Positions 2,180 to 24,318 of a DNA stretch of 27,740 nt are shown one piece after another (positions within the stretch are counted from its first letter, which is position 1; each line of letters begins with the position of its first letter). Made by a program: the position numbers and the translations under genes. The stretch lies in IMG/VR virus record IMGVR_UViG_3300044784_000026, positions 1 to 27,740 of that record. The stretch is one strand, 5' to 3'. The notes under the pieces are model-generated. The model saw only the letters and a list, made by a program, of their open reading frames with translations, had not been told where the DNA came from and made no database searches. Source of the stretch: a virus (Duplodnaviria; Caudoviricetes).

Positions 2180-3212
2180 GACCACCATCAACACCCGCCC
2201 CGTCGGCCTGGTCGGCTGGGACGACACCGACGACATCTGGCGCGCCGTCCGCTCCAAGGGCTGCGGCGCCTCTGACGTGGCCTCCCTGCTCGGCTTCTCC
2301 AACTACCGCTCTAGCTACCGCTCACCGTGGCAGGTGTGGGCCGAGAAAGTCGACCATCCGCAGGCGCCCCCATATGAGACGTCCGAGGCAGCCGAGCTTG
2401 GGCACGCGTTGGAGCCGTGGCTGATCCGCCAAGCCGAGAAACTGATCGGCGAACAGACCGGCCAAACTGAGCACCGCCACTACGCCCACCCCGAACATCC
2501 GTGGCGACGGTGCTCACCCGACGGGTGCGTGGACGGCGACGACCAGGAGTTGGTGCAGGCCAAAACCGCGGGATTGGTCACCGGCCGCACGCATGGCTGG
2601 ACCGACGACACCATCCCGCTCGGCTATGAGCTGCAGGCCCGGTGGGAGATGCACGTCATGGGCGCCCGCCGCAGCCACATCGTCGCGTTGGTCGCCGGCC
2701 GTGGCCTGTGCCTCTACACCCTGGAACGGGACCTGGCGTTGGAGGCCGACCTCGTGTCGCAGGTCGACACGTGGTGGCAGAAGCATGTGATCGGCGGGGA
2801 AGCCCCACCGCTGGCCGGTCGCGACGCTGCCATGGTCGCCGCGCTCTACCCCGCGGTGGCCCGCAACGGGGTCGACCTTGACGACAGCGAAGCCATGAGG
2901 TGGCAACGTGCCTACCTCGACGCGCACGCCCAGATCCGTGACTTGGAAGCGGCGAAGGCGGCGGCCGGCACCGAACTGAAAGCGCTGCTCGGCGACGCGG
3001 AGATCGGCTTCGTCAACGGACGGCCGGTCGCGGTGTGGGCCGAGAAACGCAACAGGGTCGACTGGGAACGGTTCGCCCGCGACCTGTACGCGTACGCCGT
3101 CGAGTACGACGCCCCGGAAGAGTTGCCCGCCGACTGGGCCGAGGCCGACTTCCTCAAGCGTGCCGAGGGTTACCGGCCCGCACCAACCCGCAGCCTCACC
3201 ATAAAGGAATAG
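2172..3212 (+). CDS. YqaJ/lambda-exonuclease-family (RecE-like) exonuclease
   Basis: W...R..G.GASD, SPWQVWAEK, GHALEP, SPDG, QAKT and YELQ motifs; directly upstream of recT. Confidence 0.92.
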   Translation: MSETTINTRPVGLVGWDDTDDIWRAVRSKGCGASDVASLLGFSNYRSSYRSPWQVWAEKVDHPQAPPYETSEAAELGHALEPWLIRQAEKLIGEQTGQTEHRHYAHPEHPWRRCSPDGCVDGDDQELVQAKTAGLVTGRTHGWTDDTIPLGYELQARWEMHVMGARRSHIVALVAGRGLCLYTLERDLALEADLVSQVDTWWQKHVIGGEAPPLAGRDAAMVAALYPAVARNGVDLDDSEAMRWQRAYLDAHAQIRDLEAAKAAAGTELKALLGDAEIGFVNGRPVAVWAEKRNRVDWERFARDLYAYAVEYDAPEELPADWAEADFLKRAEGYRPAPTRSLTIKE

Positions 3213-3215
3213 ATC

Positions 3216-4463
3216 ATGAGCACCGAAGCTAAGAACGCGCTCGCCACCCGCCGCGACAACGGCGGCCAGGTCGCCACCACCCTGACCGCGCGCATCAACC
3301 AGATGGCCCCCCAGTTCCAGCTGGCCATGCCCAAGGGGGCTGAGGCCACCCAGTTGGTTCGGGACGCGCTGACCTGCCTGCGGATGAACGCGAAACTGGC
3401 CGAGTGCGACGCCGAATCGGTTCTCGGCTCGTTGATGACTTGCGCCCAGTTGGGCCTACGACCCGGGGTGCTCGGGCATGCGTGGCCGCTGCCGTTCTGG
3501 GACAGCCGCGCCAACCCCGATGAGAACGGCCGCCCGCGTGGCGGCTACCGGGCCCAGCTGGTCATCGGCTACCAGGGCTACATCGAACTGGGTCACCGGT
3601 CGGGGCAGATCGCTTCGCTCATCGCCCGCACCGTGTACGAGAACGACATCTTCGACGTCGACTACGGGTTGGCGGATTCGTTGGTCCACAAGCCCAACCT
3701 CAAGGGCACCCGCGGCCCTGCTGTTGCCTACTACGCCATCGCCAAGTTCAACTCCGGCGGCCACGCGTTCATCGTCATGACCCATGACGACATGACCGAG
3801 CACCGCGACCGGTACGCGCCGAAGAACAAGCAGGGCAAGATCGTCGGACCCTGGGTGGACAACTTCGAGGGCATGGCCCTGAAGACCACCATCCGCAGGC
3901 TGGCGAAGTACATGCCCAAGTCGACCGAGCTGAACAATGGGCTCGCCGCCGATGGTGGTGTTCGGGTGGACACCAGCCCCGCTGTTGCGCCGTTGGAGGT
4001 GACGCGGCAGCCGGACATGTGGGACGGCGAGGTCGTCGCACCTGTGGACGGGCCTGTGGATGGCGCGACCGAACCTGAGGACAAGCCCCAGTCGCCCGAA
4101 CCCGCCCAGGCGCATCCGCTGGATGATGTGCAGTCCAAACCGCGTCTGCTCACGCAGAAGCAGAAGTCGCAGATCATGGTCCTCTCCGGCGAGTTGGGCC
4201 TCGGGGAGCGGGATGCCCGCATCGAGTTCATCGCGGGCACCATCGACCGACCGATCACCTCATCAACCGAGTTGACCAGCCGGGAGGCGTCGAAGGTTAT
4301 CGACGTCATGTTGGACTGCAAACGCAGTGAGGAGGTCCGCGGCCAACGGTCCGGCCCGAAGCCGTTGCGTGAGGTGGCCGCTGAGCAGTCAGCGGCACTG
4401 CGATCAACCCGTGGCCAGCCATCAGAGCAGGTGCCACCCGACTCAGAAAGCCCGGCCCGATGA
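3216..4463 (+). CDS. recT: RecT-family single-strand annealing recombinase with C-terminal extension
   Basis: SVLGSLMTCAQLGLRPG, AQLVIGYQGYIEL, RTVYEND and MALKTTIRRLAKYMPKS motifs; AAGGA RBS. Confidence 0.95.
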   Translation: MSTEAKNALATRRDNGGQVATTLTARINQMAPQFQLAMPKGAEATQLVRDALTCLRMNAKLAECDAESVLGSLMTCAQLGLRPGVLGHAWPLPFWDSRANPDENGRPRGGYRAQLVIGYQGYIELGHRSGQIASLIARTVYENDIFDVDYGLADSLVHKPNLKGTRGPAVAYYAIAKFNSGGHAFIVMTHDDMTEHRDRYAPKNKQGKIVGPWVDNFEGMALKTTIRRLAKYMPKSTELNNGLAADGGVRVDTSPAVAPLEVTRQPDMWDGEVVAPVDGPVDGATEPEDKPQSPEPAQAHPLDDVQSKPRLLTQKQKSQIMVLSGELGLGERDARIEFIAGTIDRPITSSTELTSREASKVIDVMLDCKRSEEVRGQRSGPKPLREVAAEQSAALRSTRGQPSEQVPPDSESPAR

Positions 4464-4729
4464 GCACGGCCACCATCGACGGCGCGTCCTACCGGCAGCT
4501 GGACTACTGGGTGCGACGCGGCTACCTCCGCCCCGAGGAGGCCACCCCGGGCACCGGCTACGCCCGCACCTGGGCGCCATCGGAGCTGCGAGTGGCCGCC
4601 CGCATGGCCCGACTGGTGGCGGCCGGGCTGACACTGGCGGCGGCCGAGAAGGTTGCCCGCGCCTCCGGTCCGATGGACCTGGGTAACGGCGTGTGGGTTG
4701 GGCTGTCCGACACCGGGGAGGTGGCCTGA
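4460..4729 (+). CDS. MerR-family HTH DNA-binding protein
   Basis: ASYRQLDYWVRRGYLRP...GTGYARTW...L is the typical actinobacterial MerR-like signature. Confidence 0.85.
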   Translation: MSTATIDGASYRQLDYWVRRGYLRPEEATPGTGYARTWAPSELRVAARMARLVAAGLTLAAAEKVARASGPMDLGNGVWVGLSDTGEVA

Positions 4730-5046
4730 TGCACAGCGGTCGCCGCATCGCACAGCCAGCAGAGTTCCGCCGCACCGAAACCGCGATCGAACCCGCCCAA
4801 CCGGCCTTGTCCGACGTGAAGCGGCGCAAAGCCGGACTGCAACTGGCTGACCTTGCCCGGCACGAACCCGAACCGGAGGGCTGCCTGCGGGAGCTGCTCG
4901 ACATGTTCGGCTTGCTACGCCCACCCCAACGGTCACCGGGGGTCTGCGCCTGCGGTGACGTTTTGCCCATGACCCATGCGGGTGGTGGCGCAACCAGAAT
5001 CCGCCGCGACCAGTGCCGCACCTGCGCCGGGGAGGCGACACCGTGA
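4729..5046 (+). CDS. hypothetical protein, possible Zn-binding (CAC...CRTC)
   Basis: GGAGG RBS, TGATG coupling upstream, GTGA coupling downstream. Confidence 0.6.
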   Translation: MHSGRRIAQPAEFRRTETAIEPAQPALSDVKRRKAGLQLADLARHEPEPEGCLRELLDMFGLLRPPQRSPGVCACGDVLPMTHAGGGATRIRRDQCRTCAGEATP

Positions 5047-5405
5047 CCGACCAGTACCGCCGGGGCGCCGTCTTCGAACGGCAGATCGCTGACCGGCTGA
5101 CCGAGGACGGCTACCTCGTCATGCGCGCCGCCGGCTCCCACGGACACGCCGACCTGATCGCATTGAAACGCGGCCAGGTGTTGCTCGTGCAATGCAAACT
5201 CGCGGGTGCTGGTGCCGTGCCACCCGCCGAATGGAACGGGCTGTGGGAAGTCGCCGAGCGGGTTGGCGCGGTCGCGCTGATCGTGTCCCGGCCGAAGCGG
5301 GGCGCCAAAGCGTGGCAGCGGATCACTGGCCCCAAGTCGGGTGTGCGCGGTGTGAAACCGCCGTGCGTGGTGTGGACCTCGGATGAGGTAATCGGCCATG
5401 GCTGA
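5043..5405 (+). CDS. Hjc-like Holliday junction resolvase (PD-(D/E)xK nuclease)
   Basis: YRRGAVFER...GYLVMRAAGSHGHADLIA...LLVQCK; GGAGG RBS, GTG start. Confidence 0.85.
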   Translation: MTDQYRRGAVFERQIADRLTEDGYLVMRAAGSHGHADLIALKRGQVLLVQCKLAGAGAVPPAEWNGLWEVAERVGAVALIVSRPKRGAKAWQRITGPKSGVRGVKPPCVVWTSDEVIGHG

Positions 5406-12087: not shown

Positions 12088-14118
12088 ATGGCGCTTGACA
12101 CCTACTGCACCGGATTCGAGCCGCGCTTCCTGGGCGTTGTCGGCAACGTCGGTAACCGGCTCTACTCGTCGGTTACCGGCACGCCCACGATCAACACGAC
12201 AGTGCCGGCCAACGGTGCGGCCTGCCTCGAAATCAGCGCCGCCGGCGCGGCCGAGGCGGTCGTCCTCGACACCAACCTGATCGGCGCCAGCAAAAACCGT
12301 GTGCGGGTCGTCTTCCGCATCCGGCTTGAGGACCTACCGGCGGCCGATACCATCCTCGCCTCGTTCACGGCCGCGGCGAACGTCGAATTCCGCTGGCATC
12401 AATCCACCGGCAAGTTCTCGGTCGAGTACGAGGGTGGCACCGAGACGGATGGACCGACCGTCTCGGCCGACACGTGGTACCACATCGAGATCTACGCCGA
12501 CATGGCCACGGGCGGCGCAAAGACGATCGACTGGTGGGTCGACGGCGCGGCGCAGACGCAGCACACGAGTGCCGGCGGCGCGGACACTGCCGCCACGTGG
12601 GAGTGGGGCTGCTCGTTCGTTTCCCAGACGTTCACGGCTCAGTACGACGACACAGTCATCTGGACCGACACGGCCGCGATCGCCGGTCCGAAAGGGCCAC
12701 ACAAGGTCGTCCTGCTCTCGGTCGACACCGGCGGCACCGTCTCCACCATTGGCGTCACCAGCGAGTTTCAGACGTTCGCCGGAGCGACGCCCACCCTCAC
12801 CGCATGGAACGCCACCACAGCGCGCGGGAACATTGATGAGATCCCGGTAAATACGACGTCGGCCCAAGACGGCGTCACGCAGATAACCGCCAACACCGCC
12901 AACGCCGTCAACGTGCCCATGACCAGCTACACCCTCGTTGGCGCCGAGGCCGTGGCCGCACTGCGCATCTGCGTACCCGGCTGGCAGGCAACCACCGCGA
13001 GCGGCACCCTCGGCCTTCGTTCGTTCAATGGCACGACCGAGACGATCCTGCTAGCCGCGCAGGCGCACACCATTCTGGGCAATAACACCGCCACCCCAGG
13101 GTGGATCTGCCGCATGGCCACCCTCGCCGACTTCGACACCCAGGGCGAAATCGACGCCCTAGTGGTGCGGATCGGATTCTCCGGCGACGCCACCCCGGAC
13201 ATGGGCTTCCACGCGGTATACGGCGAACTGGCCGTGAAAGAGGTCACCACCGTCACCCACGAGGCCCAGGCGTCCCTGGCGGTCACCGCCACCCTCACCG
13301 CCGCCCTACGCCTCGACGCCGTCCTCGCCGCCAGCCTGGCCATCACCGCCACCGCCACCGCCGCCGGCACCGGCACCCGCCCCGCCCAGGCATCCCTCGC
13401 CGCCACCGCCACCCTCACCGCCGCAGGGGACGTCACCGCCGGCGGCGTATCAATCGCAGCGGCCCTCGCCGCCACCGCCACCCTCACCGCCGGCGCCACC
13501 CACGAGGCGGTCATCGCAGCAACCCTGCCCATCACAGCTACGGGCACCGCCGCAATGGGCCACGAGGCGGTCATCAGCGCCACGCTGCCGGCCACAGCCA
13601 CCCTCACCGCCGGCGCCACACGCACCGCCACAATCGCCGCCACCATGGCCATCACAGCGGGCCGCACAGCAGGGATCGCCCTCACCGCAGTGATCGCCGC
13701 AACGCTGCCCATCACCACCACCCTCACCGCCGACGCCACCGTCGGCGCCGCCCCCGTCCTCATCCAGGCCAGCCTCCCCATCACCGCCACCCTCACGGCC
13801 GCCACATTGCGCGAGGCGCCCATCGCCGCAACCCTCCCCATCACCACCACCCTCACCGCGGCCCGCATCGCCACCCTCGTCCTCGCCGCCAACCGCACCG
13901 CCACCGCCACCCTCACCGCCGCAGGCATCGGCACCTTCTTCGTACCCGCCTCCCGGCCCATCACAGCCACCCGCACCGCAGACATGACCGTTGCCGTCGC
14001 ATACATACCCGCCCAAGTAGGCATCGACAGTGGAGCGACTACTAGTGGCATGTCCGAAGGGCGCGGCGCGGCAGGATCGGTGGACAGTGGAGGCGCAATC
14101 AGTGGCGTCATCGAATAG
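12088..14118 (+). CDS. fibre/decoration-like protein: LamG/ConA-like N-terminal domain plus 12 Thr/Ala repeats
   Basis: GGAGG RBS; DTWYHIEI...WWVDG...YDD pattern; repeats A[ST]L[AP][IA]TATLTA. Confidence 0.7.
   Translation: MALDTYCTGFEPRFLGVVGNVGNRLYSSVTGTPTINTTVPANGAACLEISAAGAAEAVVLDTNLIGASKNRVRVVFRIRLEDLPAADTILASFTAAANVEFRWHQSTGKFSVEYEGGTETDGPTVSADTWYHIEIYADMATGGAKTIDWWVDGAAQTQHTSAGGADTAATWEWGCSFVSQTFTAQYDDTVIWTDTAAIAGPKGPHKVVLLSVDTGGTVSTIGVTSEFQTFAGATPTLTAWNATTARGNIDEIPVNTTSAQDGVTQITANTANAVNVPMTSYTLVGAEAVAALRICVPGWQATTASGTLGLRSFNGTTETILLAAQAHTILGNNTATPGWICRMATLADFDTQGEIDALVVRIGFSGDATPDMGFHAVYGELAVKEVTTVTHEAQASLAVTATLTAALRLDAVLAASLAITATATAAGTGTRPAQASLAATATLTAAGDVTAGGVSIAAALAATATLTAGATHEAVIAATLPITATGTAAMGHEAVISATLPATATLTAGATRTATIAATMAITAGRTAGIALTAVIAATLPITTTLTADATVGAAPVLIQASLPITATLTAATLREAPIAATLPITTTLTAARIATLVLAANRTATATLTAAGIGTFFVPASRPITATRTADMTVAVAYIPAQVGIDSGATTSGMSEGRGAAGSVDSGGAISGVIE
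13261..13985 (+). repeat. coding repeat, 12 degenerate units of about 20-23 aa
   Basis: Recurrent ACCGCCACCCTCACCGCC; units run from ASLAVTATLTAA to ASRPITATRTAD. Confidence 0.85.
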
Positions 14119-14623: not shown

Positions 14624-15016
14624 ATGACTGGCTCGCCGCGTCGCCGCTCCGGCCGGGTCGAGTTGGCGGTGCGCCGGGATCTGCGGCGGCTGGGCCGTCT
14701 GGACACGGGCGTACGCGGATCCCTCGCGGAGGTGGCGTTCGTGTTGGCCCGGGCGATCGACGAGGCGGGGGATGAGCCTGCGACGACGGTGGCAAAGTTG
14801 GCGCAGGAGTTGCGGGTGACACTGGGGGCGTTGAGGGAGGTGGGTGGCGGTGACGACGACGATGCGGCGGTCGTCGCCGCTGACCTGTCTTCCGCTGTTT
14901 GGGACGCCGAGGAGTCTGGATCGGGCGACGTTGGGCCCGAAGGTGGCGGCGGTGGCGGGGTGGTTGGGGAAGCCGCCGATGCCGCATCAGCGCCACATTC
15001 TGGACGTGGCGTTTGA
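14624..15016 (+). CDS. terS: terminase small subunit
   Basis: Position; VE.AVRRDL...LA.VA..LARAID...AKLAQELRVTL..L pattern. Confidence 0.8.
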   Translation: MTGSPRRRSGRVELAVRRDLRRLGRLDTGVRGSLAEVAFVLARAIDEAGDEPATTVAKLAQELRVTLGALREVGGGDDDDAAVVAADLSSAVWDAEESGSGDVGPEGGGGGGVVGEAADAASAPHSGRGV

Positions 15017-16409
15017 GATTGACCCGGCGACGGGGCTGCTTGCATATTCCGAGGTGGTGTTGATCGGGCCCCGTCAGGCGACGGGTAAGACAGAGCTGTT
15101 GTTGCCGGTGATGACGCACCGGTGTCTGGGATTTGAGCAGGCCGGGCCGCAGGCGGTGTTGTATACGACGCAGACGGGGGACAAGGCCCGGGAGAAGTGG
15201 CGCGACGTTCACCTGGAGCGGTTGAAACGCAGCCGGGCGCCGCAGCTGCGGGGCAAGTTCACGTGGCGGCTGCAACGCAACAGCGAGGCGATCGTGTGGC
15301 GGAACGGGTCGATGTGGTCGCCGGGGTCGACGACGGGCAAGACGGGCGGTACGGGTGACACCCTGGATTTGGGGGTGATCGATGAGGCGTGGTCGCGGCC
15401 GGATTCCCGGACCGAGTTGGGGATGCGCCCGGCCATGATGACCCGGGATTGGCGGCAGATGTGGGTCGCGTCGATGATCCCTGGGCTGTCGCGGGCGGCG
15501 CCGGGGACGTGGCCGTATCTGCGGCATAAGCGGCAGGTGGGTCGGGCCCGGGTGGCCGCGGATGTGCGGCATGGGATGGCGTTTTTTGACTATGCGGCCG
15601 AGCCGGGTTTGGATCCGGCGGACCCGGCAACGTGGTGGTCGTGTATGCCCGGGTTGGGCCGGACCGTGTCGGAGCGGGTGGTCCGGGAGGACTTTGATGC
15701 CATGTCCGATACGGGGACGGGGCTGGTCGATTTTGAGGCCGAGTATTTGGGGTGGGAGCCGATGGAAACCGCGCCACGATGGACGATGATCCGTAAGGAG
15801 ACGTGGGCTGACCGGTGCGATATGGGCTCATATATTGAGGGCGCCCCGGCCCTGTCGGTGGAGATCAATGAGGAGCGGACGGCGGCGTGGATTTGCGCCG
15901 GCGGTCGGCGCCCGGACGGGCATTATCACGGCGAGGTCCTGGAGCCCGGTTACAAGGTCGCGGCGGGGGTGGCGGGGATCGGTTGGGTCGAGCCGCGTCT
16001 GTGGGAGATCATTGAGTCGCATAAGCCGTGCACGGTGGCGTTGGATCCGCGTCGTCCGGCTGCGTCGTTGAAGGTTGCGTTGCAGAACCGTGGGGTTGAT
16101 GTGACCACCCCGAATCAGCAGGAGATCGCCGGGGCGTGTGGCCGATTTTTCGATGCGACCGGGGAGGAGCTGCCCGAGGGTGTGGAGCCGGAGGCCTGGT
16201 TTTTTCACCTGGGTCAGCCGGAGCTGGACCGGGCGGTGGCCGGCGCCCGCCGGTATGACATGGGTGAGGGGGCGTTCACGTTCGTCCGTAAGGGTGCGAC
16301 CGCCAACATCTGCCCCCTGTACGGGGTGGTGTTGGCGATGCACGGCCATGACGTGAAGGGCTGTGACGTGACACCTGAGCCGGATATTTTCTGGGGAGAG
16401 GGCCAGTAG
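14850..16409 (+). CDS. terL: terminase large subunit
   Basis: PMPHQ, Walker A PRQATGKT, Walker B LGVIDEAW; GTG 14850 is 9 nt after GGAGG (alternative starts 14844/14862). Confidence 0.93.
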   Translation: MTTTMRRSSPLTCLPLFGTPRSLDRATLGPKVAAVAGWLGKPPMPHQRHILDVAFEIDPATGLLAYSEVVLIGPRQATGKTELLLPVMTHRCLGFEQAGPQAVLYTTQTGDKAREKWRDVHLERLKRSRAPQLRGKFTWRLQRNSEAIVWRNGSMWSPGSTTGKTGGTGDTLDLGVIDEAWSRPDSRTELGMRPAMMTRDWRQMWVASMIPGLSRAAPGTWPYLRHKRQVGRARVAADVRHGMAFFDYAAEPGLDPADPATWWSCMPGLGRTVSERVVREDFDAMSDTGTGLVDFEAEYLGWEPMETAPRWTMIRKETWADRCDMGSYIEGAPALSVEINEERTAAWICAGGRRPDGHYHGEVLEPGYKVAAGVAGIGWVEPRLWEIIESHKPCTVALDPRRPAASLKVALQNRGVDVTTPNQQEIAGACGRFFDATGEELPEGVEPEAWFFHLGQPELDRAVAGARRYDMGEGAFTFVRKGATANICPLYGVVLAMHGHDVKGCDVTPEPDIFWGEGQ

Positions 16410-16842: not shown

Positions 16843-18261
16843 GTGGGCTGGTTGACCGGGCCGCGGGACACGGCGTCAAAGGCAGGCTTCGATGTGCAGG
16901 ACGGCCAGCAGTCGTTCATGTCGATCGACGCGTTCGGCGCGGCCCGGCCGAACCTGAACGGCATCCTGGAGCCGGACGGGTCGTACGACAACTACGCGAC
17001 CAAGGCGTACGACCGTAACGAGCTGGTCTACGCGTGCATCGCCGAGCGCGCGCAGTCGTTGGCCCAGTCGACGATCCGGGTGTACCCGCAGGGTCGGGGC
17101 GAGGCGATCGACGACCACCGCCTGCGGCGGGTGTTCGAGCAGCCGAATCCGCTGGTGTCCGAGTTCGAGCTCTTCGAGCTTTCGTCGACGTACAAGGACC
17201 TGGGTGGCACCTGCTTCTGGCTGATCATCGAGGGGCGGGACCGCCTGCCGTCCCAGTTGTGGCCGTTGCGACCCGACCTGGTCGGGGTCCTGCCGTCGAA
17301 CAAGGATCCGCGCATCTACGCGTGGGCGTACAAGCCCGACGAGCGGCGGCCGGACCGGTGGGTGGTCATCCCCCGGGACATGATGATCGTGGTGAAGTAT
17401 CCGAATCCGAACCCGCGCGACCCGGCGCAGCGGTATTTCGGTCGGCCACCATTGCGGGCGGCGGCGCGGGCCACGACGTTGGACAATGCGGCCACCGATT
17501 TTGTGGACACCCTGCTGCGTAATCACGCGATGCCGTCGACCGTTGTCGAAACCGAGTCGGTCATGACAGACGCGATCCACTCCCGGCTGCGGTCGATTTG
17601 GAAGCGGGCGTTTGGCGGGCCGAACCGGGGTGAGCCGGCGTTCCTGCAGAAGGGCATGAAGGTCCACGAGCTTGGTTTGACCCTGACCAATCTAGAATTT
17701 CCTGACCTGCGGGCGGTGTCGGAGACGCGCATCTGCATGCCGTTCGGCGTACCGCCCATTCTGGTCGGCGCGAAGGTGGGCCTGGAGCACAACGCGTACA
17801 AGGATTTCCGCGAGGCCCGGCTCCAGTTCTGGGAGGAGACGATGCTGCCCGAGCAGCGTCGTTTCATTGACCCGATCCGGGGCCGCCTGCTCAAGCCGTT
17901 CTTGGGTGTGGGGCGTCGGTCGGTGCGGGTCGCCTGGGACAACTCGGAGGTGCTGGCCCTCAAGGAGGCGCTGGATTCCAAGTGGTCCCGGGCGACCAAT
18001 GCGCTGGCGCGGGGCGGCATCACGGTCAATGACTTCCGGATGGAGGTCGAACTGCCGACGGTGCCGGGCGGGAACGTGTTCCTGGTGCCGGCGGGGGTGG
18101 TGCCCACGGTGGCGCTGGACGAGGCGGGCGCCGCGGCGGCCGCGGCCCAGGCCGAGGTGGTGTCGGCGAGTGTGGAGTTGATGGCCGCCGAGTATGGCAT
18201 CGAGTTGTCCGAGCGGGAGTTGTTGGCGCTCAAGTCGTCGGCGGAGGTGTTCCGTGACTGA
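16843..18261 (+). CDS. HK97-family portal protein
   Basis: VYACI, PNP..S.FE, LWPLRPD, GRPPLRAA, ICMPFGVPPILVG, ITVNDFR...LP..PGG; AGGAG RBS. Confidence 0.95.
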   Translation: MGWLTGPRDTASKAGFDVQDGQQSFMSIDAFGAARPNLNGILEPDGSYDNYATKAYDRNELVYACIAERAQSLAQSTIRVYPQGRGEAIDDHRLRRVFEQPNPLVSEFELFELSSTYKDLGGTCFWLIIEGRDRLPSQLWPLRPDLVGVLPSNKDPRIYAWAYKPDERRPDRWVVIPRDMMIVVKYPNPNPRDPAQRYFGRPPLRAAARATTLDNAATDFVDTLLRNHAMPSTVVETESVMTDAIHSRLRSIWKRAFGGPNRGEPAFLQKGMKVHELGLTLTNLEFPDLRAVSETRICMPFGVPPILVGAKVGLEHNAYKDFREARLQFWEETMLPEQRRFIDPIRGRLLKPFLGVGRRSVRVAWDNSEVLALKEALDSKWSRATNALARGGITVNDFRMEVELPTVPGGNVFLVPAGVVPTVALDEAGAAAAAAQAEVVSASVELMAAEYGIELSERELLALKSSAEVFRD

Positions 18262-18637
18262 TCTGATGTTGTCGGCGGCCCGGCTGGGAATCGACCTTGA
18301 CCTGACCAGCCCGTACGCCCAGGAGTTGTTGGTCGGCAAGCATCTGCCGGGGCGGCACGATCAGTCGACGCATGGCGGCGGCGGCGGTAACCGTGACGCC
18401 ACGTTGTCCGACCGTTATCAACAGGTGTACGGGGACATCTCCGATGAGTGGTCGGTTGGGGACAACCTCACGGTGGTGTTGACCCAGCGGGGCGAGGCGC
18501 ATGTCGCCAACGACGAGGGCCCCGGCGACCGTGAGGTTCTTTTCGACCTCGTCGATTCCGACGAGGCGCGCCAATTGGCCGGGGCGCTGGACACGATGGC
18601 CGACGACTGGGACGACCTGTTGGAGGGCGAGGAATGA
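18254..18637 (+). CDS. acidic head-module protein A with KHLPGRHDQSTHG motif
   Basis: GGAGG RBS, GTG 18254; paralogous to the next gene. Confidence 0.8.
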   Translation: MTDLMLSAARLGIDLDLTSPYAQELLVGKHLPGRHDQSTHGGGGGNRDATLSDRYQQVYGDISDEWSVGDNLTVVLTQRGEAHVANDEGPGDREVLFDLVDSDEARQLAGALDTMADDWDDLLEGEE

Positions 18638-19272
18638 CCGTGTCCTCCTTCGCCGCCCTGGCCGCCGCGCATGGTGTCGACCTGCGCGAGTCGGATGGGT
18701 ACGCCCGCCGGCTTCTCGGCGAAAAGCACCTGCCCGGCCAGCACTCACAGGCGACGCACGGTGGCGGGGGTGTGGGCCCGGGTGCTGACGACGACGACGA
18801 GGACGAGGGCGAGTTCGGCTTTGGTGTGGATTCGGCCGGCGTGTCGTACACCGAGAACGACGTGGACGACGCCGGGAACCCCCGCTTCTCAGAGTCGTAC
18901 CGGAGACGCTACGGGCCGATCAACAGCGAGACTATCCACGACACAGCGGAGGGCCGCCCTATCGCCATCGTGCAAAGCGAAAAGGGGCCGTTCATGCACG
19001 TTGCAGACGACAGCGCGGGGACGAGGGGTCGCGTGGTCGTCCAGGAGTTCACCCAACCCCAGACGAAGGCGCTCGGTGACGGCGTCTGGTCGGTCTACAA
19101 CGGCGACAAGGAATCGGCCACCGTGGCCGGGGTGTCCATCAAACCGGCCGGCGCGAACCCCACCAGGGACGGCGTTCAGATCACATGGAGCGGTGGCCTC
19201 CAAACCACCTTCGAGGGCGAGAGCGGTAACGACGAGGCCTTCGACCTGCAGGAGAGCTTGGGGTTGTCATGA
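18634..19272 (+). CDS. acidic head-module protein B with KHLPGQHSQATHG motif
   Basis: ATGA coupling at both ends; paralogous to the previous gene. Confidence 0.85.
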   Translation: MTVSSFAALAAAHGVDLRESDGYARRLLGEKHLPGQHSQATHGGGGVGPGADDDDEDEGEFGFGVDSAGVSYTENDVDDAGNPRFSESYRRRYGPINSETIHDTAEGRPIAIVQSEKGPFMHVADDSAGTRGRVVVQEFTQPQTKALGDGVWSVYNGDKESATVAGVSIKPAGANPTRDGVQITWSGGLQTTFEGESGNDEAFDLQESLGLS

Positions 19273-20192
19273 ATGGTGAATGGCTGAAGCTCGGTGTCGA
19301 CGGCGCGGTGCCGATCCACTGGACCACCCTCGCCAAAGGTGCGGACGACGGCACGGGCGAACTGGAGGGGTGGGCCAGCGTCTACAACGTGGTGGACGAC
19401 CAGGATGACATTGTTGTGCCCGGCGCGTTCGTGAAGACGCTGAACATCTGGCGCGCCAACGGCCGCGTGATCGCCCTTACCAACGCCCACGACAACGCGC
19501 CGTCGGGTGTCATCGGGTCCGTGACCAAGGCCCAGGACATGCCGTACGGCCTCAAGCTGCGGTTCAAGTATTCGTCCGCGCCGGATGCGCAGGCAATCCG
19601 TACGAAGGCCAAGGAGGGCCACATCGGCGGCCTCTCCATCTTCGGCCCGATCATCAGCCACGCGTACGAGAACCGCGCCGGCCGGGACTTGCGGATCATC
19701 ACTGAGGCGGGACTGTGGGCGGTCGGCCTGACCCCCATGCCCGTCAATACCAAGGCCCTGGTTACATCGGCGAAGGCCAAGGGTCGGGCCGGGGGACGCG
19801 ACGAGGACCTGTCCGAGGTGTGGATCTGTGACATGAAGTCCGCCCTGGCAATCACCGTCCCCGCCGCCCGCAAGGCCGCGGTTGACCTTCTGGTCAAGTC
19901 GCAATACAACATCGGCGTTGTCGACCGGCCCGCGCCTGCGGCCACGACCAACGACGGCGGCGGCACCGCCGCGCCCACCGCCGCGCCCAGTACGACCACG
20001 GAGCCCGTGACCGGCGTCGACGACGCGTCCACGTACGCTCTCAACCTCATCGGAGAACCCGGGCCTGACGGCAAGTCGCCCGGCGGCGAGTCTGGATCTG
20101 GTTCCCTCGCCGATCAACTGCTGGCGACGCTCGGCGCCGCCACGACCAGCGCCGACATCGAGGCGCTGGCAGCCGAGATCGGTATGCCTTAG
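19269..20192 (+). CDS. HK97-family prohead protease with C-terminal extension
   Basis: LEGWASVYNVVD..DDIVVPGAF.KTL, catalytic His (AHD...IG) and Ser (GGLSI). Confidence 0.93.
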   Translation: MNGEWLKLGVDGAVPIHWTTLAKGADDGTGELEGWASVYNVVDDQDDIVVPGAFVKTLNIWRANGRVIALTNAHDNAPSGVIGSVTKAQDMPYGLKLRFKYSSAPDAQAIRTKAKEGHIGGLSIFGPIISHAYENRAGRDLRIITEAGLWAVGLTPMPVNTKALVTSAKAKGRAGGRDEDLSEVWICDMKSALAITVPAARKAAVDLLVKSQYNIGVVDRPAPAATTNDGGGTAAPTAAPSTTTEPVTGVDDASTYALNLIGEPGPDGKSPGGESGSGSLADQLLATLGAATTSADIEALAAEIGMP

Positions 20193-20203
20193 GAGGCATT
20201 GAA

Positions 20204-21475
20204 ATGAGTGAACAGACCCGAAAGACGTTGGTCGACAAGGCGATGCAGTGCATTCACCTCGCCCGGACAATCCGCGACCGGCACCCCGACCCGACGAAGA
20301 TCCCCGCCGAGGATGCGGTCAAGATGCAGACCCTCCTCAAGGAGGCGTCGCGCCTCAAGGACTCGGCCGCGCTCGAAAAGGCGCAGGACGAGATGGAGGC
20401 GTGGTCGGCGGCGCCCGACCAGGTGCCGGCCGCCCTTGCGGCCGAGGCCCACGCCGCGGCCCTGACCGGGGGCGAGCCGGCGTACGCCGAGGCCGCCAAG
20501 CGCCGCCAGACCGAACTGTTCGCGAAGGCGATGCGGCACGGCTGGAAGAACCAGGGCTGGGTCGAGCAGCTCGACATGGCCGAGAAGGCGTCCCTGGTTG
20601 AGGACGCCACCGGTGAGGTCATCGTGCCCCACGACATCGCCGGCCCCATCTTCAAGACCCTCCCGCGGCTGGGCATCTTCCGCGGCTCGGGCCCGACTGT
20701 CCGGCCCACCACGTCGAACAAGGTCGACCTGCGGTCGCTGACCCAGGCCACCGCCGGCTGGGGCAAGTTGGAGGTCGGCGCGGCCACGGTCGACGCGAAC
20801 GTGGTGGCGAACACCCCGGTCGACGTGGTCGAGGTCCACGACCTGGTCGCCATGTCCCGGATCGGTGTGGACGAACTTGCCGACACCGACGCCAACCTGG
20901 TCGCCCTGGTCACCGACATCGTCGGCCAGTTGTGCGCGCAGATGGAGGACGACGCGTTCGCCGCGGGTAACGGCGTGTCGAAGCCGTGGGGCCTGGCGGC
21001 GCGCGCGACGTCGGCCGGCAACCAAATCACGCAGGCCGTCACCGCGGCCGGCACGGCGATCGTCACCGGCGACGAACTCAAGCGGCTGCAGTACCGGGTA
21101 CCGACCCGGTTCCGCAGCAGCGGCGTGTACTACGCCAGCGCCGACGCCGCCGAGGCGATCGCGTTGCTCAAGGACAGCACGAGCAACTACCTCTGGCAGC
21201 CGTCGGTGCGCGCCGGCGAGCCGGACACCCTGTTCGGCAAGGGGTTCTTCACCCTTGAGGGTTTGCCGGCCATGACCGCAACCACCACGATCACCGACCC
21301 GTCGGTCATCTTCGGCGATCCGGCCCTGGGCTACCTGTTGGCCGACCGGCAGCGGATCACCGTGCAGCGGCTGGACGAGCGTTACGCGGAACTCGGCCTG
21401 GTGGGGTTCCTCTTCAAGTTGCGGGTGGGCGGCGACGTGATGCGCCCGGCCGCGTTCGCGAAGTACCTCCTCTGA
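20204..21475 (+). CDS. HK97-fold major capsid protein with N-terminal delta domain
   Basis: AGGAGG RBS; helical N-terminus, EDDAF..GNG..KP.G, LKD....YLWQPS...G.P.TL.G, IFGD and R.GGDV..P.AF. Confidence 0.96.
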   Translation: MSEQTRKTLVDKAMQCIHLARTIRDRHPDPTKIPAEDAVKMQTLLKEASRLKDSAALEKAQDEMEAWSAAPDQVPAALAAEAHAAALTGGEPAYAEAAKRRQTELFAKAMRHGWKNQGWVEQLDMAEKASLVEDATGEVIVPHDIAGPIFKTLPRLGIFRGSGPTVRPTTSNKVDLRSLTQATAGWGKLEVGAATVDANVVANTPVDVVEVHDLVAMSRIGVDELADTDANLVALVTDIVGQLCAQMEDDAFAAGNGVSKPWGLAARATSAGNQITQAVTAAGTAIVTGDELKRLQYRVPTRFRSSGVYYASADAAEAIALLKDSTSNYLWQPSVRAGEPDTLFGKGFFTLEGLPAMTATTTITDPSVIFGDPALGYLLADRQRITVQRLDERYAELGLVGFLFKLRVGGDVMRPAAFAKYLL

Positions 21476-21518: not shown

Positions 21519-21598
21519 CCCCCAAGTTTCTAATCCCCGAAAAGTGCCCGGCATCTGTGGCGACTTAGAAACTTCGCCCTCCGTGAAAGGACCCCGCA

Positions 21599-21844
21599 GT
21601 GAACATCAAGACGCTGAACTATGTCAACGACCGGACGGAGGACGGCCGGGTCTACGCGGCCATGGAGGGCACCGAGTCGGTGATCGACGACGCCGACGTG
21701 GCGATGGTCGCGCTGATGAAAAGCCTCGCCGCCCGGGGTCTCGTCGAGATCGCCAAGGACAAGGCGAAGGAGGCGGCCGCAGCCAAGGCTGCGGCGGCAG
21801 CCGACAAGGCCGACGCCAAGGACAAGGCGGCGGACAAGGCGTGA
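21599..21844 (+). CDS. small post-capsid protein with Lys/Ala-rich tail
   Basis: GAAAGGA RBS, GTG start, GTGA coupling to the next gene. Confidence 0.8.
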   Translation: MNIKTLNYVNDRTEDGRVYAAMEGTESVIDDADVAMVALMKSLAARGLVEIAKDKAKEAAAAKAAAAADKADAKDKAADKA

Positions 21845-23751
21845 AGATCCTCTGGCACTCCGTCGCACCGTGGGCCCCATCCGGGTACGGGCAGCAAACC
21901 GCGCTCTTCGCCCCACCGATCAAGGCCCTCGGCCACGACCTGGTGATCTCCGCGTACTACGGCCTGCAGGGTGCCGACCTCGACTGGCACGGCATCAAAT
22001 GCCTGCCGTCATACTCGAAGATGTACGGGGCCGACACGATCGTGCCGCACGCTCTCTGGCACTTCGGCGCCGGCGGCGACGACGTGACGAAACTGCGGGA
22101 CGCCGCCAACCGCGGCCTGGTCATCACCCTGACCGACGTGTGGGTGTTGGACGCCCCGCTGCTGCCGGACCTGGCCGTGGCCGCATGGGCGCCGATCGAC
22201 CACGAGACGGTGCCGCCCGCGGTGCAGCATTGGTTCGGCCAGACGGGCGCCATCCCCATCGCCATGTCCCGGTTCGGCGAGCGCGCGATGCGCGAGATTG
22301 GCCTTGAGCCGATCTATGTGCCGCACGGTGTCGACACGTCCGTATTCTTCCCGGGCGACAAGGCCGAGGCCCGGGCGCGCATCGGCCTGCCCGAGGATGC
22401 GTTCGTGGTGGCGATCGTGGCCGCCAACGTCGGCAAGGACGGCGCCCGCAAGGCGTTCGCCGAGCAGATCACGGCGTTCGCAGAGTTGCGCCGCCGGCAT
22501 TCGGACGCGGTCCTGGTCCTGCACACCGACATCGACGCGGGGGTGGGTGTGCGCATCCGCGACCTGATCGACGACCTGCCCGAGGGGTCGTGCGTCTACA
22601 CCGACCAGTACATGTTCAAGCGCGGTCTGCCGGCGTCGAAGGTGGCCGACATCTACCGGGCCGCGGACGTGTACAGCAACACCTCCTGGGGCGAGGGGTT
22701 CGGCATCTGCATCATCGAGGCCCAGGCGTGCGGTACCCCGGTGATCGTGACCGACACCACCGCCATGCCCGAACTGGCGGGTGCCGGGTGGAAGGTGCCG
22801 GGCGAACCACTCTGGCACGACTCGCAGCGAGCGTGGGCCCGCCGCCCACTGCTGGCGGGCATCATCGACGCCTACGAGAAGGCGTACGACGGTGCGCGCG
22901 ACGAGGACCTGCGAGCCCAGGCGTGGGCGTTCGCCCAGGCCTATGACGTCGCCAACGTGATGGCCGAGTACTGGGAGCCGGCCCTCAAGACATTGGAGAC
23001 GGCCCTGGACCGGCGCCGTGACGACGCCCTCACCACGCCCAAGGCGGCCACCCTGGAGACCACCCTGCGGCAGGCCGACGGCCTCCTATGGCTGGACCGG
23101 GGCAACCGCACGGACGACTGGATCGGGTGGAGCAAGCACGAGGAGACCCTGGGGCCGATCCTCGACGGCCTGCTGCCGGACGGCGGCGTGTTCCTGGACG
23201 TGGGTGCCCACATCGGACGGTGGTCGCTGCGGTTGGCCGGCAAGGCGTCGTGGGTGTACGCCGTCGAACCCAACCCCGAGACGGGGAAGAGCCTGGTTAA
23301 ACACCTGGTCCTCAACGAGATCAAGAACGTCTCCCGGATTCCCGTGGCCGCGTGGGACGTGCACGCCCAACTCCGGCTCGACGACGCCAACAACCGCCTC
23401 GCCGGCGGGTCGACCCGAACGCTGGAGGTGGCCGAGGCCGAGGCGACGGACCCGGTGTCGTCGGAGGCATGGGTGCCGGCGCGGCCGCTGGACGACGTCC
23501 TCGAACTGCAGGCGGCCGACCGGATCGACCTGATCAAGATGGACGTCGAGGGGGCCGACCTGCACGCCCTGCGCGGCATGGCCGGCCTCATCGCCAAGCA
23601 CCGGCCCGCCATGGTCGTCGAATGCCACGACCAGTACGGGTACTACACGCGCGCCGAACTTGAGGCCGTCCTCACCGACCTCGGCTACGTGTGGGACGAG
23701 GTCAAGTATCTGACGTCGCCGTACCTGGTGTGCACCCCGGCGCCGGAATGA
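21841..23751 (+). CDS. GT4 (GT-B) glycosyltransferase fused to FkbM-family methyltransferase
   Basis: KILWHS.APW.PSGYG, PHGVDT..F and EGFG..IIEAQACGTPVI; then FLDVGAHIG, VYAVEPNP and IDLIKMDVEGAD...LRG. True start is GTG 21841, not 21544. Confidence 0.92.
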   Translation: MKILWHSVAPWAPSGYGQQTALFAPPIKALGHDLVISAYYGLQGADLDWHGIKCLPSYSKMYGADTIVPHALWHFGAGGDDVTKLRDAANRGLVITLTDVWVLDAPLLPDLAVAAWAPIDHETVPPAVQHWFGQTGAIPIAMSRFGERAMREIGLEPIYVPHGVDTSVFFPGDKAEARARIGLPEDAFVVAIVAANVGKDGARKAFAEQITAFAELRRRHSDAVLVLHTDIDAGVGVRIRDLIDDLPEGSCVYTDQYMFKRGLPASKVADIYRAADVYSNTSWGEGFGICIIEAQACGTPVIVTDTTAMPELAGAGWKVPGEPLWHDSQRAWARRPLLAGIIDAYEKAYDGARDEDLRAQAWAFAQAYDVANVMAEYWEPALKTLETALDRRRDDALTTPKAATLETTLRQADGLLWLDRGNRTDDWIGWSKHEETLGPILDGLLPDGGVFLDVGAHIGRWSLRLAGKASWVYAVEPNPETGKSLVKHLVLNEIKNVSRIPVAAWDVHAQLRLDDANNRLAGGSTRTLEVAEAEATDPVSSEAWVPARPLDDVLELQAADRIDLIKMDVEGADLHALRGMAGLIAKHRPAMVVECHDQYGYYTRAELEAVLTDLGYVWDEVKYLTSPYLVCTPAPE

Positions 23752-23763
23752 GGTGCGGGGCCG

Positions 23764-24318
23764 ATGGATTGGTACGAGGTCGCAGACACCGCCGTTGGGG
23801 TGCACCACGCGTCGCAGCACCGCGACGAGTTGGCCGCCGCCCTCACGGTGGTCGCCGACCTCGGCCCGTCGGTCATCGTCGAGATCGGGTGTGACGCCGG
23901 CGGCACCCTGTACGCGTGGCGGCAGGTGTGCGACCGGGTGTACGGCATCACCGCGGCGGACAACAGCTACGAGGCGGGCGGCAGTAGCCGGCCGTTGGAT
24001 GCGCACGGCAGCGTCGTCCTGATCGGCGACTCGCACGACCCGAGCAGCGTCGCCTGGCTGGATGCCCAACTGGCCGGCGACCCGGTGGACGCCCTGATCA
24101 TCGACGGCGACCACACCTACGCCGGCGTCAGCGACGACCTGGGGCGGTACGGACCGCTGGTGCGGCCCGGCGGGCTGATCCTGCTGCACGACATCGTGAC
24201 CGTCGACCCGCGGGCCGAGGTCCGCCTGCTGTGGCCCGAGCTGGTCGACCGGTACCGGACCACCCAGATCCGCGGCCCGTTCGGGTGGGGCGTCATCCAC
24301 TGGGACGGCGCCGCATGA
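23764..24318 (+). CDS. class I SAM-dependent methyltransferase (Methyltransf_24-like)
   Basis: IVEIGCDAGGT, IGDS, DALIIDGDHTY.GV..D and LVRPGGLILLHD. Confidence 0.9.
   Translation: MDWYEVADTAVGVHHASQHRDELAAALTVVADLGPSVIVEIGCDAGGTLYAWRQVCDRVYGITAADNSYEAGGSSRPLDAHGSVVLIGDSHDPSSVAWLDAQLAGDPVDALIIDGDHTYAGVSDDLGRYGPLVRPGGLILLHDIVTVDPRAEVRLLWPELVDRYRTTQIRGPFGWGVIHWDGAA

What the first reader, a model, noticed from the sequence alone, without database searches (positions are those of the whole stretch)
18175..20192. Shared helix motif on portal tail, protease tail and two cargo leaders: candidate procapsid-targeting and Lys-cleavage code
Seen: portal C-terminus ELMAAEYGIELSERELLALK-S; protein A N-terminus LMLSAARLGIDLDLTSPYAQELLVGK-H; protein B N-terminus AALAAAHGVDLRESDGYARRLLGEK-H; protease C-terminus IEALAAEIGMP. 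All four share AAxhGh, and three continue to [ER]LLxxK. The capsid has EK-ASL (K128) at the expected delta-domain boundary. Known: HK97 protease cleaves the capsid after Lys and is co-assembled inside the prohead; T4 uses a cleavable capsid-targeting leader for internal proteins. Inference: one portable peptide docks portal, protease and cargo on the delta-domain scaffold, and cleavage after K releases cargo beginning HLPG. I am not aware of this being described for HK97-type actinophages. The motif is short and Ala-rich, so chance similarity is possible.
Basis: partly seen in the sequence, partly recalled or inferred. Interest (0 to 1): 0.85.

Follow-up and report, generated by a model that had tools for sequence, protein, structure and literature searches.

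The report
Header-tagged cargo genes beside phage portal
Two small sister genes wedged between the portal and protease genes of this uncultured high-GC phage start with a histidine-rich peptide (KHLPGxHxQxTHGGGG) that also stands at module boundaries in over a hundred large phage head-associated proteins and is likely a loading or cutting tag for capsid cargo, while the proposed helix shared with the portal and protease tails is probably coincidence.

Summary

- **Proteins A and B:** they are tandem paralogues, so their common leader is inherited.
- **Leader core:** K-HLPGxH[D/S]QxTH-GGGG belongs to a widespread motif I found in no searched paper. An exhaustive profile search gave 164 proteins, mostly 500-3000 aa, with 2-11 copies spaced about one domain apart. 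Some carry MuF or polyvalent-type ADP-ribosyltransferase domains.
- **Leader helix (AAxxG[IV]DL):** it occurs only in A, B and one other protein.
- **Portal tail:** conserved in orthologues that lack A and B. Its likeness to the leader is weak.
- **Protease tail:** its likeness to the portal tail is absent in 4 of 4 orthologous modules.
- **Header swapping:** B's cargo domain has a Whirly/PUR-like predicted fold. In relatives it carries a different header (QPRDxxGRF), so headers are interchangeable modules.

The likely reading is that A and B are head cargo, with a header that marks them for loading or release. Neither packaging nor cutting is shown.

The co-folding test could not be run. This scan had already noted similar header tags on other DNA.

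The parts
16843..18261 (+). HK97-family portal protein, 472 aa
   Evidence: PF04860 E 5.6e-53; phrog_2662 and phrog_12.
18154..18261 (+). Portal C-terminal tail. It holds the conserved element ...AS.GL[LM]AAE[YF]G[IV]EL[ST]xxEL..., followed by Lys464.
   Evidence: Conserved in 5 of 5 orthologous loci read (L011, L012, L013, L014, L016). It is present in 13 of 40 database portals; the other 27 lack it, and most of them carry a different AASYAExFLxEL tail.
18254..18637 (+). Protein A, 127 aa from GTG 18254. It is a short paralogue of B: header plus one four-strand-and-helix unit.
   Evidence: SD GGAGG at 18243-18247, and the gene overlaps the portal stop. hhalign of the B family against A gives probability 94%, E 1.3e-7. 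The AF2 model has H53-59, four strands at 62-99 and H102-124, with core pLDDT 64-80.
18254..18391 (+). Header of A: helix region, spacer, K29, HLPGRHDQSTH (18341-18373), then GGGGG.
   Evidence: profile match 5-46, E 3.2e-21.
18634..19272 (+). Protein B, 212 aa: header, acidic/Gly linker and cargo domain.
   Evidence: ATGA overlaps with A and with the protease. Four to five homologues of the cargo domain.
18634..18777 (+). Header of B: helix region, spacer, K31, HLPGQHSQATH (18727-18759), then GGGG.
   Evidence: profile match 1-46, E 2.5e-22.
18811..19269 (+). Cargo domain of B (residues about 60-212). Predicted as two (four strands + helix) units, a Whirly/PUR-like fold.
   Evidence: AF2 pLDDT is 84-96 per block over 61-210. 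The top 8 VIA-align rows are all Whirly/PUR-like, Z 8.0-6.9, and the next row is 5.3. The best Foldseek PDB match is Pur-alpha, E 8.6e-3.
19269..20192 (+). S78 (HK97-type) prohead serine protease, 307 aa.
   Evidence: PF04586 E 8.9e-12; phrog_80 and phrog_3244.
20157..20189 (+). Protease C-terminal peptide IEALAAEIGMP.
   Evidence: Present. Not conserved in orthologues, and in 4 of 4 of them it is no more similar to their portal tails than shuffles are.
20204..21475 (+). HK97-fold major capsid protein, 423 aa. The N-terminal delta (scaffold) domain is residues 1-128 (20204-20587). The predicted maturation site is EK128|A129.
   Evidence: PF05065 E 5.2e-42 from residue 137. E127-K128-A129 is invariant in 4 of 4 aligned capsids. 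The HK97 gp5 site reads KTFNK|SLGSDAD.

Best explanation
A and B are tandem paralogous accessory genes inserted between the portal and protease genes of an HK97-type head module, and each begins with a copy of a widespread header peptide that likely marks proteins for loading into the procapsid or for release by cutting.

**Shown**
- The header core is [V/h]-x-K-H-L-P-G-x-H-[D/N/S]-Q-x-x-H-[G/A], followed by a Gly-rich linker.
- The same core stands at N-termini and between domain-sized modules of large phage proteins. Some of these carry MuF or polyvalent-type ADP-ribosyltransferase (ART) domains.
- The cargo domain of B occurs in relatives behind a different header (QPRDxxGRF).
- A near-identical leader sits on a different cargo in P0006.
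- The four genes portal, A, B and protease overlap start to stop.

**Inferred**
- A and B are made with the head proteins and enter the procapsid by their header.
- The S78 protease would cut after the Lys, as it is predicted to cut the capsid at EK|A. That would free Whirly/PUR-like, possibly nucleic-acid-binding, proteins inside the head.
- The portal tail is a separate conserved element. The protease-tail match is chance.
For: **The header is real and widespread**
- The leader profile searched against 1.84 billion representatives found 164 proteins at E<=1e-3 and 27 at E<=1e-10.
- Only A, B and P0006 match the whole profile. In the other 147 listed, the best stretch starts at profile position 11 or later, mostly 24-30.
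- A regex over the listed hits found 412 instances in 142 proteins. The residue before His is K in 342, F 27, L 12, A 11, R 9.
- For 140 non-window proteins:
  - median length 903.5 aa;
  - median 3 instances per protein;
  - median spacing 246 aa;
  - first instance within 60 residues in 81 of 140.
- In viral contigs, 25 of 25 instances in L001-L007 follow K.

**Head association**
- L005, L020 and L023 have Phage_Mu_F domains, with the motif right after AHPNCRC in L020 and L023.
- L007 has ART-PolyVal domains.
- L021 is an S78_2 protease with the motif after its protease domain.
- L020 has a MuF-header-ART fusion, followed by two separate header-ART genes.

**Header swapping**
- Six members of B's cargo family were examined.
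- B and P0003 have the HLPG type, and P0004 a degenerate one.
- P0002, P0005 and L031 have the RDxxGxF type.

**Paralogy and context**
- A against B.
- A and B are absent in 4 of 4 orthologous modules where downstream DNA is held.
- ATGA overlaps join A to B and B to the protease.
- The capsid EK|A site is invariant in 4 of 4 aligned capsids.
- P3 of the K-type instances is V, I or L in 174 of 337.
Against: - No datum shows that A or B is in virions or is cut.
- Twelve conserved residues after the presumed cut site are unusual for a protease site. They fit a binding or metal-binding element as well.
- K is not universal before the motif: 70 of 412 instances have another residue.
- The local context of the capsid site (MAEK|A) differs from A (LVGK|H) and B (LGEK|H).
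- One homologue of B (L031) lies among connector and tail genes, not beside the portal.
- The leader-to-portal-tail likeness is not nil:
  - 17 of 5000 and 120 of 5000 shuffles in the window;
  - 4 of 5000 for P0006 against the portal P0156.
  A real relation of these two helices is therefore not excluded.
- The window is only about 55% of a genome, so a MuF gene or another reader of the tag may lie outside it.
Confidence: 0.55

Rival explanations
1. One helix (AAxhGh...[ER]LLxxK) is a common docking peptide that places portal, protease and cargo on the capsid delta domain, with cutting after the Lys in each.
For: - All four peptides exist.
- The portal tail is conserved in orthologues.
- Uncorrected shuffle counts are low for portal tail against B helix (17 of 5000) and against protease tail (4 of 5000).
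- A basic residue stands at the Lys464 position in 8 of 13 related portal tails.
- As recalled, Duda, Oh and Hendrix 2013 show that the HK97 protease carries a targeting function in its C-terminal part. The paper is not held. I saw only its reference entry.
Against: - The protease tail matches its own portal tail in 0 of 4 orthologous modules: 3644, 2136, 534 and 3379 of 5000 shuffles.
- The protease tail does not match the leaders: 706 and 1212 of 5000.
- The portal-tail profile scores the B leader at only E 2.6, and does not match A, among 567 segments.
- hhalign gives probability 2.3%.
- A and B are one case by descent, not two.
- The helix is found on no other header-bearing protein outside this lineage.
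- Portal orthologues keep the tail without any tagged cargo.
- The HK97 portal contacts the scaffold by its wing domain (PMC10275583 passages).
- Leader and tail scores show no own-pair preference between the two related phages.
Confidence: 0.1
2. The KHLPGxHDQxxHG peptide is not a loading or prohead-protease signal. It would instead be a functional hinge of its own. Options include a metal-binding site (three His, one Asp), a site read after ejection by a metallopeptidase of polyvalent proteins or by a host protease, or an aid to threading through the tail channel.
For: - H, G, H, Q and H were fixed by the search pattern. Where alternatives were allowed, one residue still dominates: L 92%, D 79%, K 83% before the first His. 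That is more than a protease site usually needs.
- The motif keeps the same form in contigs of very different composition.
- Small header-bearing proteins P0133 and P0141 carry HExxH zincin-like motifs, read by eye.
- Iyer et al. 2017 propose that embedded metallopeptidases process polyvalent proteins (passages of PMC5512222).
Against: - No metallopeptidase was found in the window.
- The frequent N-terminal position after a short variable helix (81 of 140) looks like a leader.
- The motif is interchangeable with an unrelated header (RDxxGRF) that has no His triad.
Confidence: 0.2
3. The helix in front of the header descends from, or mimics, the portal's own C-terminal helix. It could be a junction duplication made when the cargo genes were inserted at the portal's 3' end. 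It could also be a mimic that docks cargo at the portal crown, as SPP1 gp7 is docked by its portal.
For: - Gene A starts inside the portal's last codons.
- A helix-G[VI]D-spacer-KHLPG arrangement also opens MuF-type proteins P0038, P0048 and P0064.
- The leader-to-tail likeness recurs in P0006 and P0156 (4 of 5000).
- The only two tails with Lys at the position of Lys464 are the window-like P0155 and P0156.
- SPP1 gp6 targets gp7 to the procapsid (passage of PMC6316719).
Against: - DNA alignment of the tail and leader regions shows no more likeness than shared amino acids in a high-GC genome would give.
- hhalign gives probability 2.3%.
- That P0006 and P0156 share a contig is inferred only from equal contig length (4425) and source.
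- The two phages are close relatives (372 of 445 portal residues identical), so this is not an independent repeat.
Confidence: 0.1
4. A and B are ordinary cytoplasmic accessory proteins, for example single-strand nucleic-acid binders. They would merely be expressed from the late operon, and the header would have no role in the virion.
For: - The fold resembles Pur-alpha, MRP1/2, Whirly and SsgA/B proteins.
- A and B are dispensable for the module, since orthologues lack them.
Against: - The header is tied to MuF, a protease, polyvalent domains and head gene clusters elsewhere.
- A and B overlap start to stop with the portal and protease genes.
Confidence: 0.1

Closest known systems
Capsid targeting sequence (CTS) of phage T4 internal proteins (IPI-III, Alt)
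   Same: A short N-terminal peptide shared by otherwise diverse proteins, which directs them into the scaffolding core of the prohead (passages of PMC3012670). As recalled, the prohead protease removes it.
   Different: T4 uses a different, shorter peptide and, as recalled, a T4-type protease that cuts after LxE. Here the module is HK97-type with an S78 protease, and the tag is a 13-residue His-rich motif with a conserved part after the presumed cut. The tag also occurs internally between modules. No function has been shown.
MuF (SPP1 gp7)-fused cargo: phage-type polyvalent proteins and MuF polymorphic toxins
   Same: Effector modules ride into the capsid on a portal-bound head protein (PMC6316719 passage; PMC5512222 passages). 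The same KHLPG header stands between MuF and cargo in L020 and L023, and between ART-PolyVal modules in L007.
   Different: A and B have no MuF domain, and the window holds no MuF gene. They are stand-alone small proteins. The motif is not mentioned in the main text of PMC5512222 (term search) or PMC5576092 (term search). Their supplements were not read.
HK97 gp4 protease and gp5 maturation (MEROPS S78)
   Same: The same gene order and families: portal, S78 protease, and capsid with an N-terminal delta domain. The predicted capsid cut follows Lys (EK|A), as in HK97 KTFNK|S.
   Different: HK97 has no genes between portal and protease. Its portal and protease tails show no AAxxG motif. HK97 carries no tagged cargo that I know of (recalled).
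Encapsulin cargo-loading peptides (recalled, not tested here)
   Same: A short portable peptide loads diverse cargo into an HK97-fold shell.
   Different: Those peptides are usually C-terminal, differ in sequence and are not cut off. No comparison was run here.

Membership tests
KHLPGxHDQxxHG header of phage head-associated modules (motif family defined here by profile A1; no curated model) | Core K-H-L-P-G-x-H-[D/N/S]-Q-x-x-H-[G/A] | tested here: met
   A has K-HLPGRHDQSTH-G and B has K-HLPGQHSQATH-G. The profile hits them at E 3.2e-21 and 2.5e-22 among 164 hits.
KHLPGxHDQxxHG header of phage head-associated modules | Stands at the N-terminus after a short segment, or between modules, and is followed by a Gly-rich or low-complexity linker and a folded module | tested here: met
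   His is at residue 30 (A) and 32 (B). GGGG(G) follows, then a disordered stretch, then folded domains. The family-wide median position of the first His is 20.
KHLPGxHDQxxHG header of phage head-associated modules | Encoded in or fused to head-assembly genes | tested here: met
   A and B lie between portal and protease and overlap both. Elsewhere the motif sits in MuF, S78_2 protease and ART-PolyVal proteins.
KHLPGxHDQxxHG header of phage head-associated modules | Tagged protein is loaded into the capsid and/or cut at the tag | not testable with these tools
   Needs virion proteomics.
T4-type capsid targeting sequence | T4-type prohead protease with an LxE cut site next to the tag (definition recalled) | tested here: not met
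   The protease is S78 (PF04586). The leaders have no LxE directly before the mature part.
MuF / SPP1 gp7 family | Phage_Mu_F domain (PF04233) | tested here: not met
   A and B have no Pfam, PHROG or NCBIfam hit.
   The tails read GLASLEDELKSM, ELDAMLRDFGQSAKG, EIAAIAAELRGESA and DLDKLEKELLGDN. None beats shuffles against its own portal tail.
   Only A, B and P0006 match profile positions 1-24, out of 164 hits in 1.84 billion representatives. A looser G[VI]D form occurs in a few MuF-type proteins.
   Shuffle counts are 17 and 120 of 5000 and 4 of 5000, uncorrected. hhalign gives probability 2.3%, P 0.021. The HMM gives E 2.6.
Whirly / PUR-like fold (Pur-alpha, MRP1/2, Whirly, SsgA/B) | Two four-strand-plus-helix units packed face to face | tested here: inconclusive
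   The secondary structure fits: E96-139 + H141-155, then E162-193 + H201-210. The top 8 VIA-align rows are of this kind (3k44_A: Z 8.0, rmsd 4.2, 109 aligned), and the next is Z 5.3. Foldseek E-values are only 8.6e-3 and weaker. Z near 8 is within the tool's stated middling range.
HK97-type head module | Portal PF04860, S78 protease PF04586 and HK97-fold capsid PF05065 with an N-terminal delta domain, in that order | tested here: met
   Capsid residues 1-136 lie outside the Pfam domain, and the EK|A site is conserved.

The most novel reading that the evidence does not exclude
KHLPGxHDQxxHG is a general address-and-release label for capsid cargo, read by a conserved head component in many unrelated tailed phages. 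In this lineage the helix in front of it copies the portal's own C-terminal helix, so that free-standing cargo docks at the portal crown without any MuF carrier.
Probability: 0.12. Interest if true: 0.8.

Novelty: new variant of a known kind. Interest (0 to 1): 0.5.

Why it matters
- Phages carry proteins inside the capsid and inject them with the DNA. These include anti-defence enzymes, toxins and DNA-binding proteins.
- How such cargo is addressed is known in detail for T4 and for MuF fusions only.
- A short, widespread, sequence-recognisable header would allow virion cargo to be predicted from sequence alone in uncultured phages. It would also give a simple handle for loading foreign proteins into HK97-type heads.
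- This window adds three points:
  - stand-alone tagged cargo in a plain HK97-type module without MuF;
  - a natural header swap on one cargo family;
  - the same leader on different cargo in a close relative.
- It also removes a tempting but unsupported idea: that the portal and protease share the tag.

Tried and rejected
**Searches that found nothing or only spurious matches**
- tblastn of A, B and the A leader against 50,697 phage records gave no match at E 1e-3. At E 10 it gave only a chance hit in an endolysin.
- The genome-contig scan with the protease found nothing.
- The genome-contig scan with the leader gave one spurious off-frame hit in a Chitinophaga transporter gene (L017).
- L008 from the viral scan is likewise an off-frame artefact.
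- Viral-contig scans with P0006 and P0084 found nothing.
- The metagenome scan with the leader gave 12 loci. None covers leader residues 1-18.
- The protein atlas gave no usable hit for B's cargo.
- The A-only protein search found only A itself.

**Literature**
- The motif strings occur in 0 phage papers. The searches were made, over PMC-CC and bioRxiv only.
- Duda et al. 2013 is not held.
- Supplements of PMC5512222 were not read and may list the motif as part of a named domain.

**Tests that could not run or did not support an idea**
- Co-folding of the leader with three delta domains never ran.
- Recent DNA duplication of the portal tail into the leaders is not supported.
- Co-variation of leader and portal tail between the two related phages shows no own-pair preference.

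Full report
**What the window is**

The window is a whole IMG/VR virus record of 27,740 bases, rated about 55% complete. Its G+C content is 63-72%.
- The left half carries early genes:
  - a Tad4-like Thoeris inhibitor;
  - YqaJ and RecT;
  - an Hjc-like resolvase;
  - an HTH protein, DUF5131 and an HNH nuclease.
- An HK97-type head module follows:
  - large terminase, 14844-16409 (phrog_9);
  - portal, 16843-18261 (PF04860, E 5.6e-53);
  - two small ORFs, A and B;
  - S78 protease, 19269-20192 (PF04586, E 8.9e-12);
  - capsid, 20204-21475 (PF05065, E 5.2e-42 from residue 137).
- A and B match nothing in Pfam, PHROGs or NCBIfam.

**Checking the observation**

- A most likely starts at GTG 18254, six bases after GGAGG, and overlaps the portal stop.
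- B overlaps A, and the protease overlaps B, each by ATGA. The four genes therefore form one coupled unit.
- The capsid has MAEK128|ASLVED. E-K-A is invariant in 4 of 4 aligned capsids. The HK97 site reads KTFNK|SLGSDAD.

**A and B are paralogues**

- BLASTP of A against B gives E 5.7e-13 over the leaders.
- The likeness continues into the body. A profile of the B family aligns A's YQQVYGDI...LTVVLTQRGEAHVANDEGPGDREV with B's YRRRYGPI...IAIVQSEKGPFMHVADDSAGTRGRVV (probability 94%, E 1.3e-7).
- B's model is confident over residues 61-210 (block pLDDT 84-96). It is two units of four strands plus a helix.
- A's weaker model (core pLDDT 64-80) is one such unit.
- In the search that does not lean on Foldseek, the best eight solved chains are all Whirly/PUR-like:
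  - Pur-alpha: Z 8.0, rmsd 4.2, 109 aligned;
  - MRP1/2: Z 7.9;
  - 2nvn, ErpC, an SsgA-like protein, StWhy2, PBF-2 and 2it9: Z 7.1-6.9;
  - the next row drops to Z 5.3.
- Foldseek agrees only weakly. Its best match is Pur-alpha at E 8.6e-3, and none reaches 1e-3.
- The fold assignment is therefore likely but not firm, and it gives no function.
- The 'two cargo leaders' are thus one leader inherited twice.

**The core of the leader is a widespread motif**

A profile of the A, B and P0006 leaders was scored against 1.84 billion representative proteins.
- It found 164 proteins at E<=1e-3 and 27 at E<=1e-10.
- Only A, B and P0006 match the whole profile.
- In the other 147 listed, the matched stretch begins at position 11 or later, mostly 24-30. 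That part is K-HLPGxHDQxxH-G.
- Most hits are 500-3000 aa, with 2-11 matched stretches.

A regular expression over the listed hits found 412 instances in 142 proteins.
- The preceding residue is K in 342, F in 27, L in 12, A in 11 and R in 9.
- The residue after the last His is G in 276 and A in 108.

Among 140 non-window proteins:
- median length is 903.5 aa;
- median number of instances is 3;
- median spacing is 246 aa;
- in 81 of 140 the first instance lies within the first 60 residues, with the first His at a median position of 20.

Among the K-type instances, P3 is V, I or L in 174 of 337.

In viral contigs, all 25 instances in L001-L007 follow Lys. These carriers are head-associated.
- L005, L020 and L023 hold Phage_Mu_F. 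In L020 and L023 the motif comes directly after the AHPNCRC end of MuF.
- L007 holds ART-PolyVal domains.
- L021 is an S78_2 protease with the motif after its catalytic domain.
- L020 encodes a MuF-header-ART fusion, followed by two separate genes that each begin leader-KHL[PA]G-ART.

I found the motif strings in no phage paper. They do not appear in the main text of the polyvalent-protein paper (term search) or of the MuF-toxin paper (term search). I did not read the supplements.

Earlier notes of this scan describe the same kind of header tag on other DNA. I read them after reaching this view, and they are not independent evidence.

**Headers are interchangeable**

B's cargo domain has five relatives.
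- B and P0003 carry the HLPG header, and P0004 a degenerate one.
- P0002, P0005 and L031 carry ...RDxxG[QKR]F-GGG at the same place.
- P0006 has an A-like leader on a body that does not align with B beyond residue 83.
- P0006's contig length (4425) and source equal those of portal P0156, which is 372/445 identical to the window's portal.
- A close relative therefore probably has the same leader on other cargo after its portal. This is inferred, because the contig could not be fetched.

**The portal tail**

- Five orthologous loci at 55-63% portal identity keep ...GL[LM]AAE[YF]G[IV]EL[ST]xxEL.
- In all 4 loci with downstream DNA held, the protease follows the portal directly. None of L011-L016 holds the header motif.
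- The tail is therefore a conserved element whose function does not depend on A or B.
- A search with the portal's last 93 residues gave 40 portals. Thirteen have this tail. The other 27 lack it, and most of them carry a different tail, QAASYAExFLxEL...NGH.
- At the position of Lys464 the five loci have E, P, R, Q and V. The 13 database tails have K 2, R 6, T 3 and E 2.
- Lys itself is thus not conserved, though a basic residue is common.

**Is the leader helix like the portal tail?**

- Composition-preserving shuffles give 17 of 5000 (B), 120 of 5000 (A) and 4 of 5000 (P0006 against P0156).
- B against nine other tails of the same class gives 10 to 140 of 2000.
- These pairs were chosen by eye among many termini, so the counts are uncorrected.
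- The formal searches are negative:
  - the portal-tail HMM gives E 2.6 for B and nothing for A;
  - the leader profile finds no tail;
  - hhalign gives probability 2.3% over 9 columns.
- The DNA shows no recent duplication.
- There is no own-pair preference between the two related phages.
- I rate a real relation as possible but unproven.

**The protease tail**

- In the window it resembles the portal tail (4 of 5000). It does not resemble the leaders (706 and 1212 of 5000).
- In 4 of 4 orthologous modules the protease tail is no closer to its own portal tail than shuffles are: 3644, 2136, 534 and 3379 of 5000.
- What the protease C-regions do share is a block further upstream, YALxLIGExGP...PGGE...SLADLL (read by eye).

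**Mechanism**

Shown:
- the header is a portable, conserved module;
- it stands in front of diverse modules in head-associated proteins;
- it can be exchanged for another header.

Inferred:
- it addresses the module to the procapsid, marks where the module is released, or does both;
- in this phage the S78 protease would cut after the Lys, as it is predicted to do at the capsid's EK|A.

Points against a plain cut site are the twelve conserved residues after the Lys and the 70 of 412 instances without Lys. A binding or metal-binding role fits these equally well.

The co-folding test of leader against delta-domain trimers could not be run, so docking on the delta domain stays untested. In HK97 the portal contacts the scaffold through its wing domain (PMC10275583 passages).

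**Verdict**

- The four-way 'code' is not supported.
- The leader is a member of a widespread header family that I found in no searched paper.
- I rate this as a new variant of a known kind, namely capsid cargo tags such as the T4 CTS and MuF fusions.

Noticed in passing
window 785-1216 (+): ORF of 143 aa matching the Type I Thoeris inhibitor Tad4 (PF25186, E 4.9e-34). This would be an anti-defence gene in the early region.
   Followed up: no
window 21544-23751 and 23764-24318 (+): Directly after the capsid gene lies a 735-aa fusion of a GT4 glycosyltransferase and an FkbM methyltransferase. A second methyltransferase follows. L014 has a similar 665-aa ORF after its capsid gene, judged by eye from shared end sequences. 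Cluster O mycobacteriophages carry sugar-transferase genes inside their head module (PMC4351075 passage), so virion glycosylation is a possibility.
   Followed up: partly
window 19269-20192, C-terminal third; also L012, L013, L014, L016: The protease C-regions share a block, [AS]x[YF]ALxhIGExGP...PGG[ED]...[SP]LADLL, upstream of the variable last residues. This block is a better candidate than the extreme tail for a conserved targeting or autocleavage region.
   Followed up: no
database portals P0168-P0194: More distant HK97-family portals end in a different conserved tail...QAASYAExF[LI]xEL...NGH. Both tail types begin with AASY-like residues. Their function is unknown.
   Followed up: no
L020 1-2746: A MuF-header-ADP-ribosyltransferase fusion is followed by two separate genes, each leader-KHL[PA]G-ADP-ribosyltransferase. 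The same cargo type is thus both fused and free-standing in one locus.
   Followed up: partly
L021 4978-6408: An XkdF-type prohead protease (PF14550, E 3e-26) carries the KHLPGRHDQKAHG motif after its protease domain.
   Followed up: no
window 12088-14118 (+): A 676-aa ORF without any Pfam hit. It lies in the stretch with the highest G+C (0.72) and the strongest negative GC skew (-0.325). The skew turns positive just after it, near 14000.
   Followed up: no
window 2085-5405 (+): A recombination module: YqaJ-like exonuclease, RecT and an Hjc-like resolvase.
   Followed up: no
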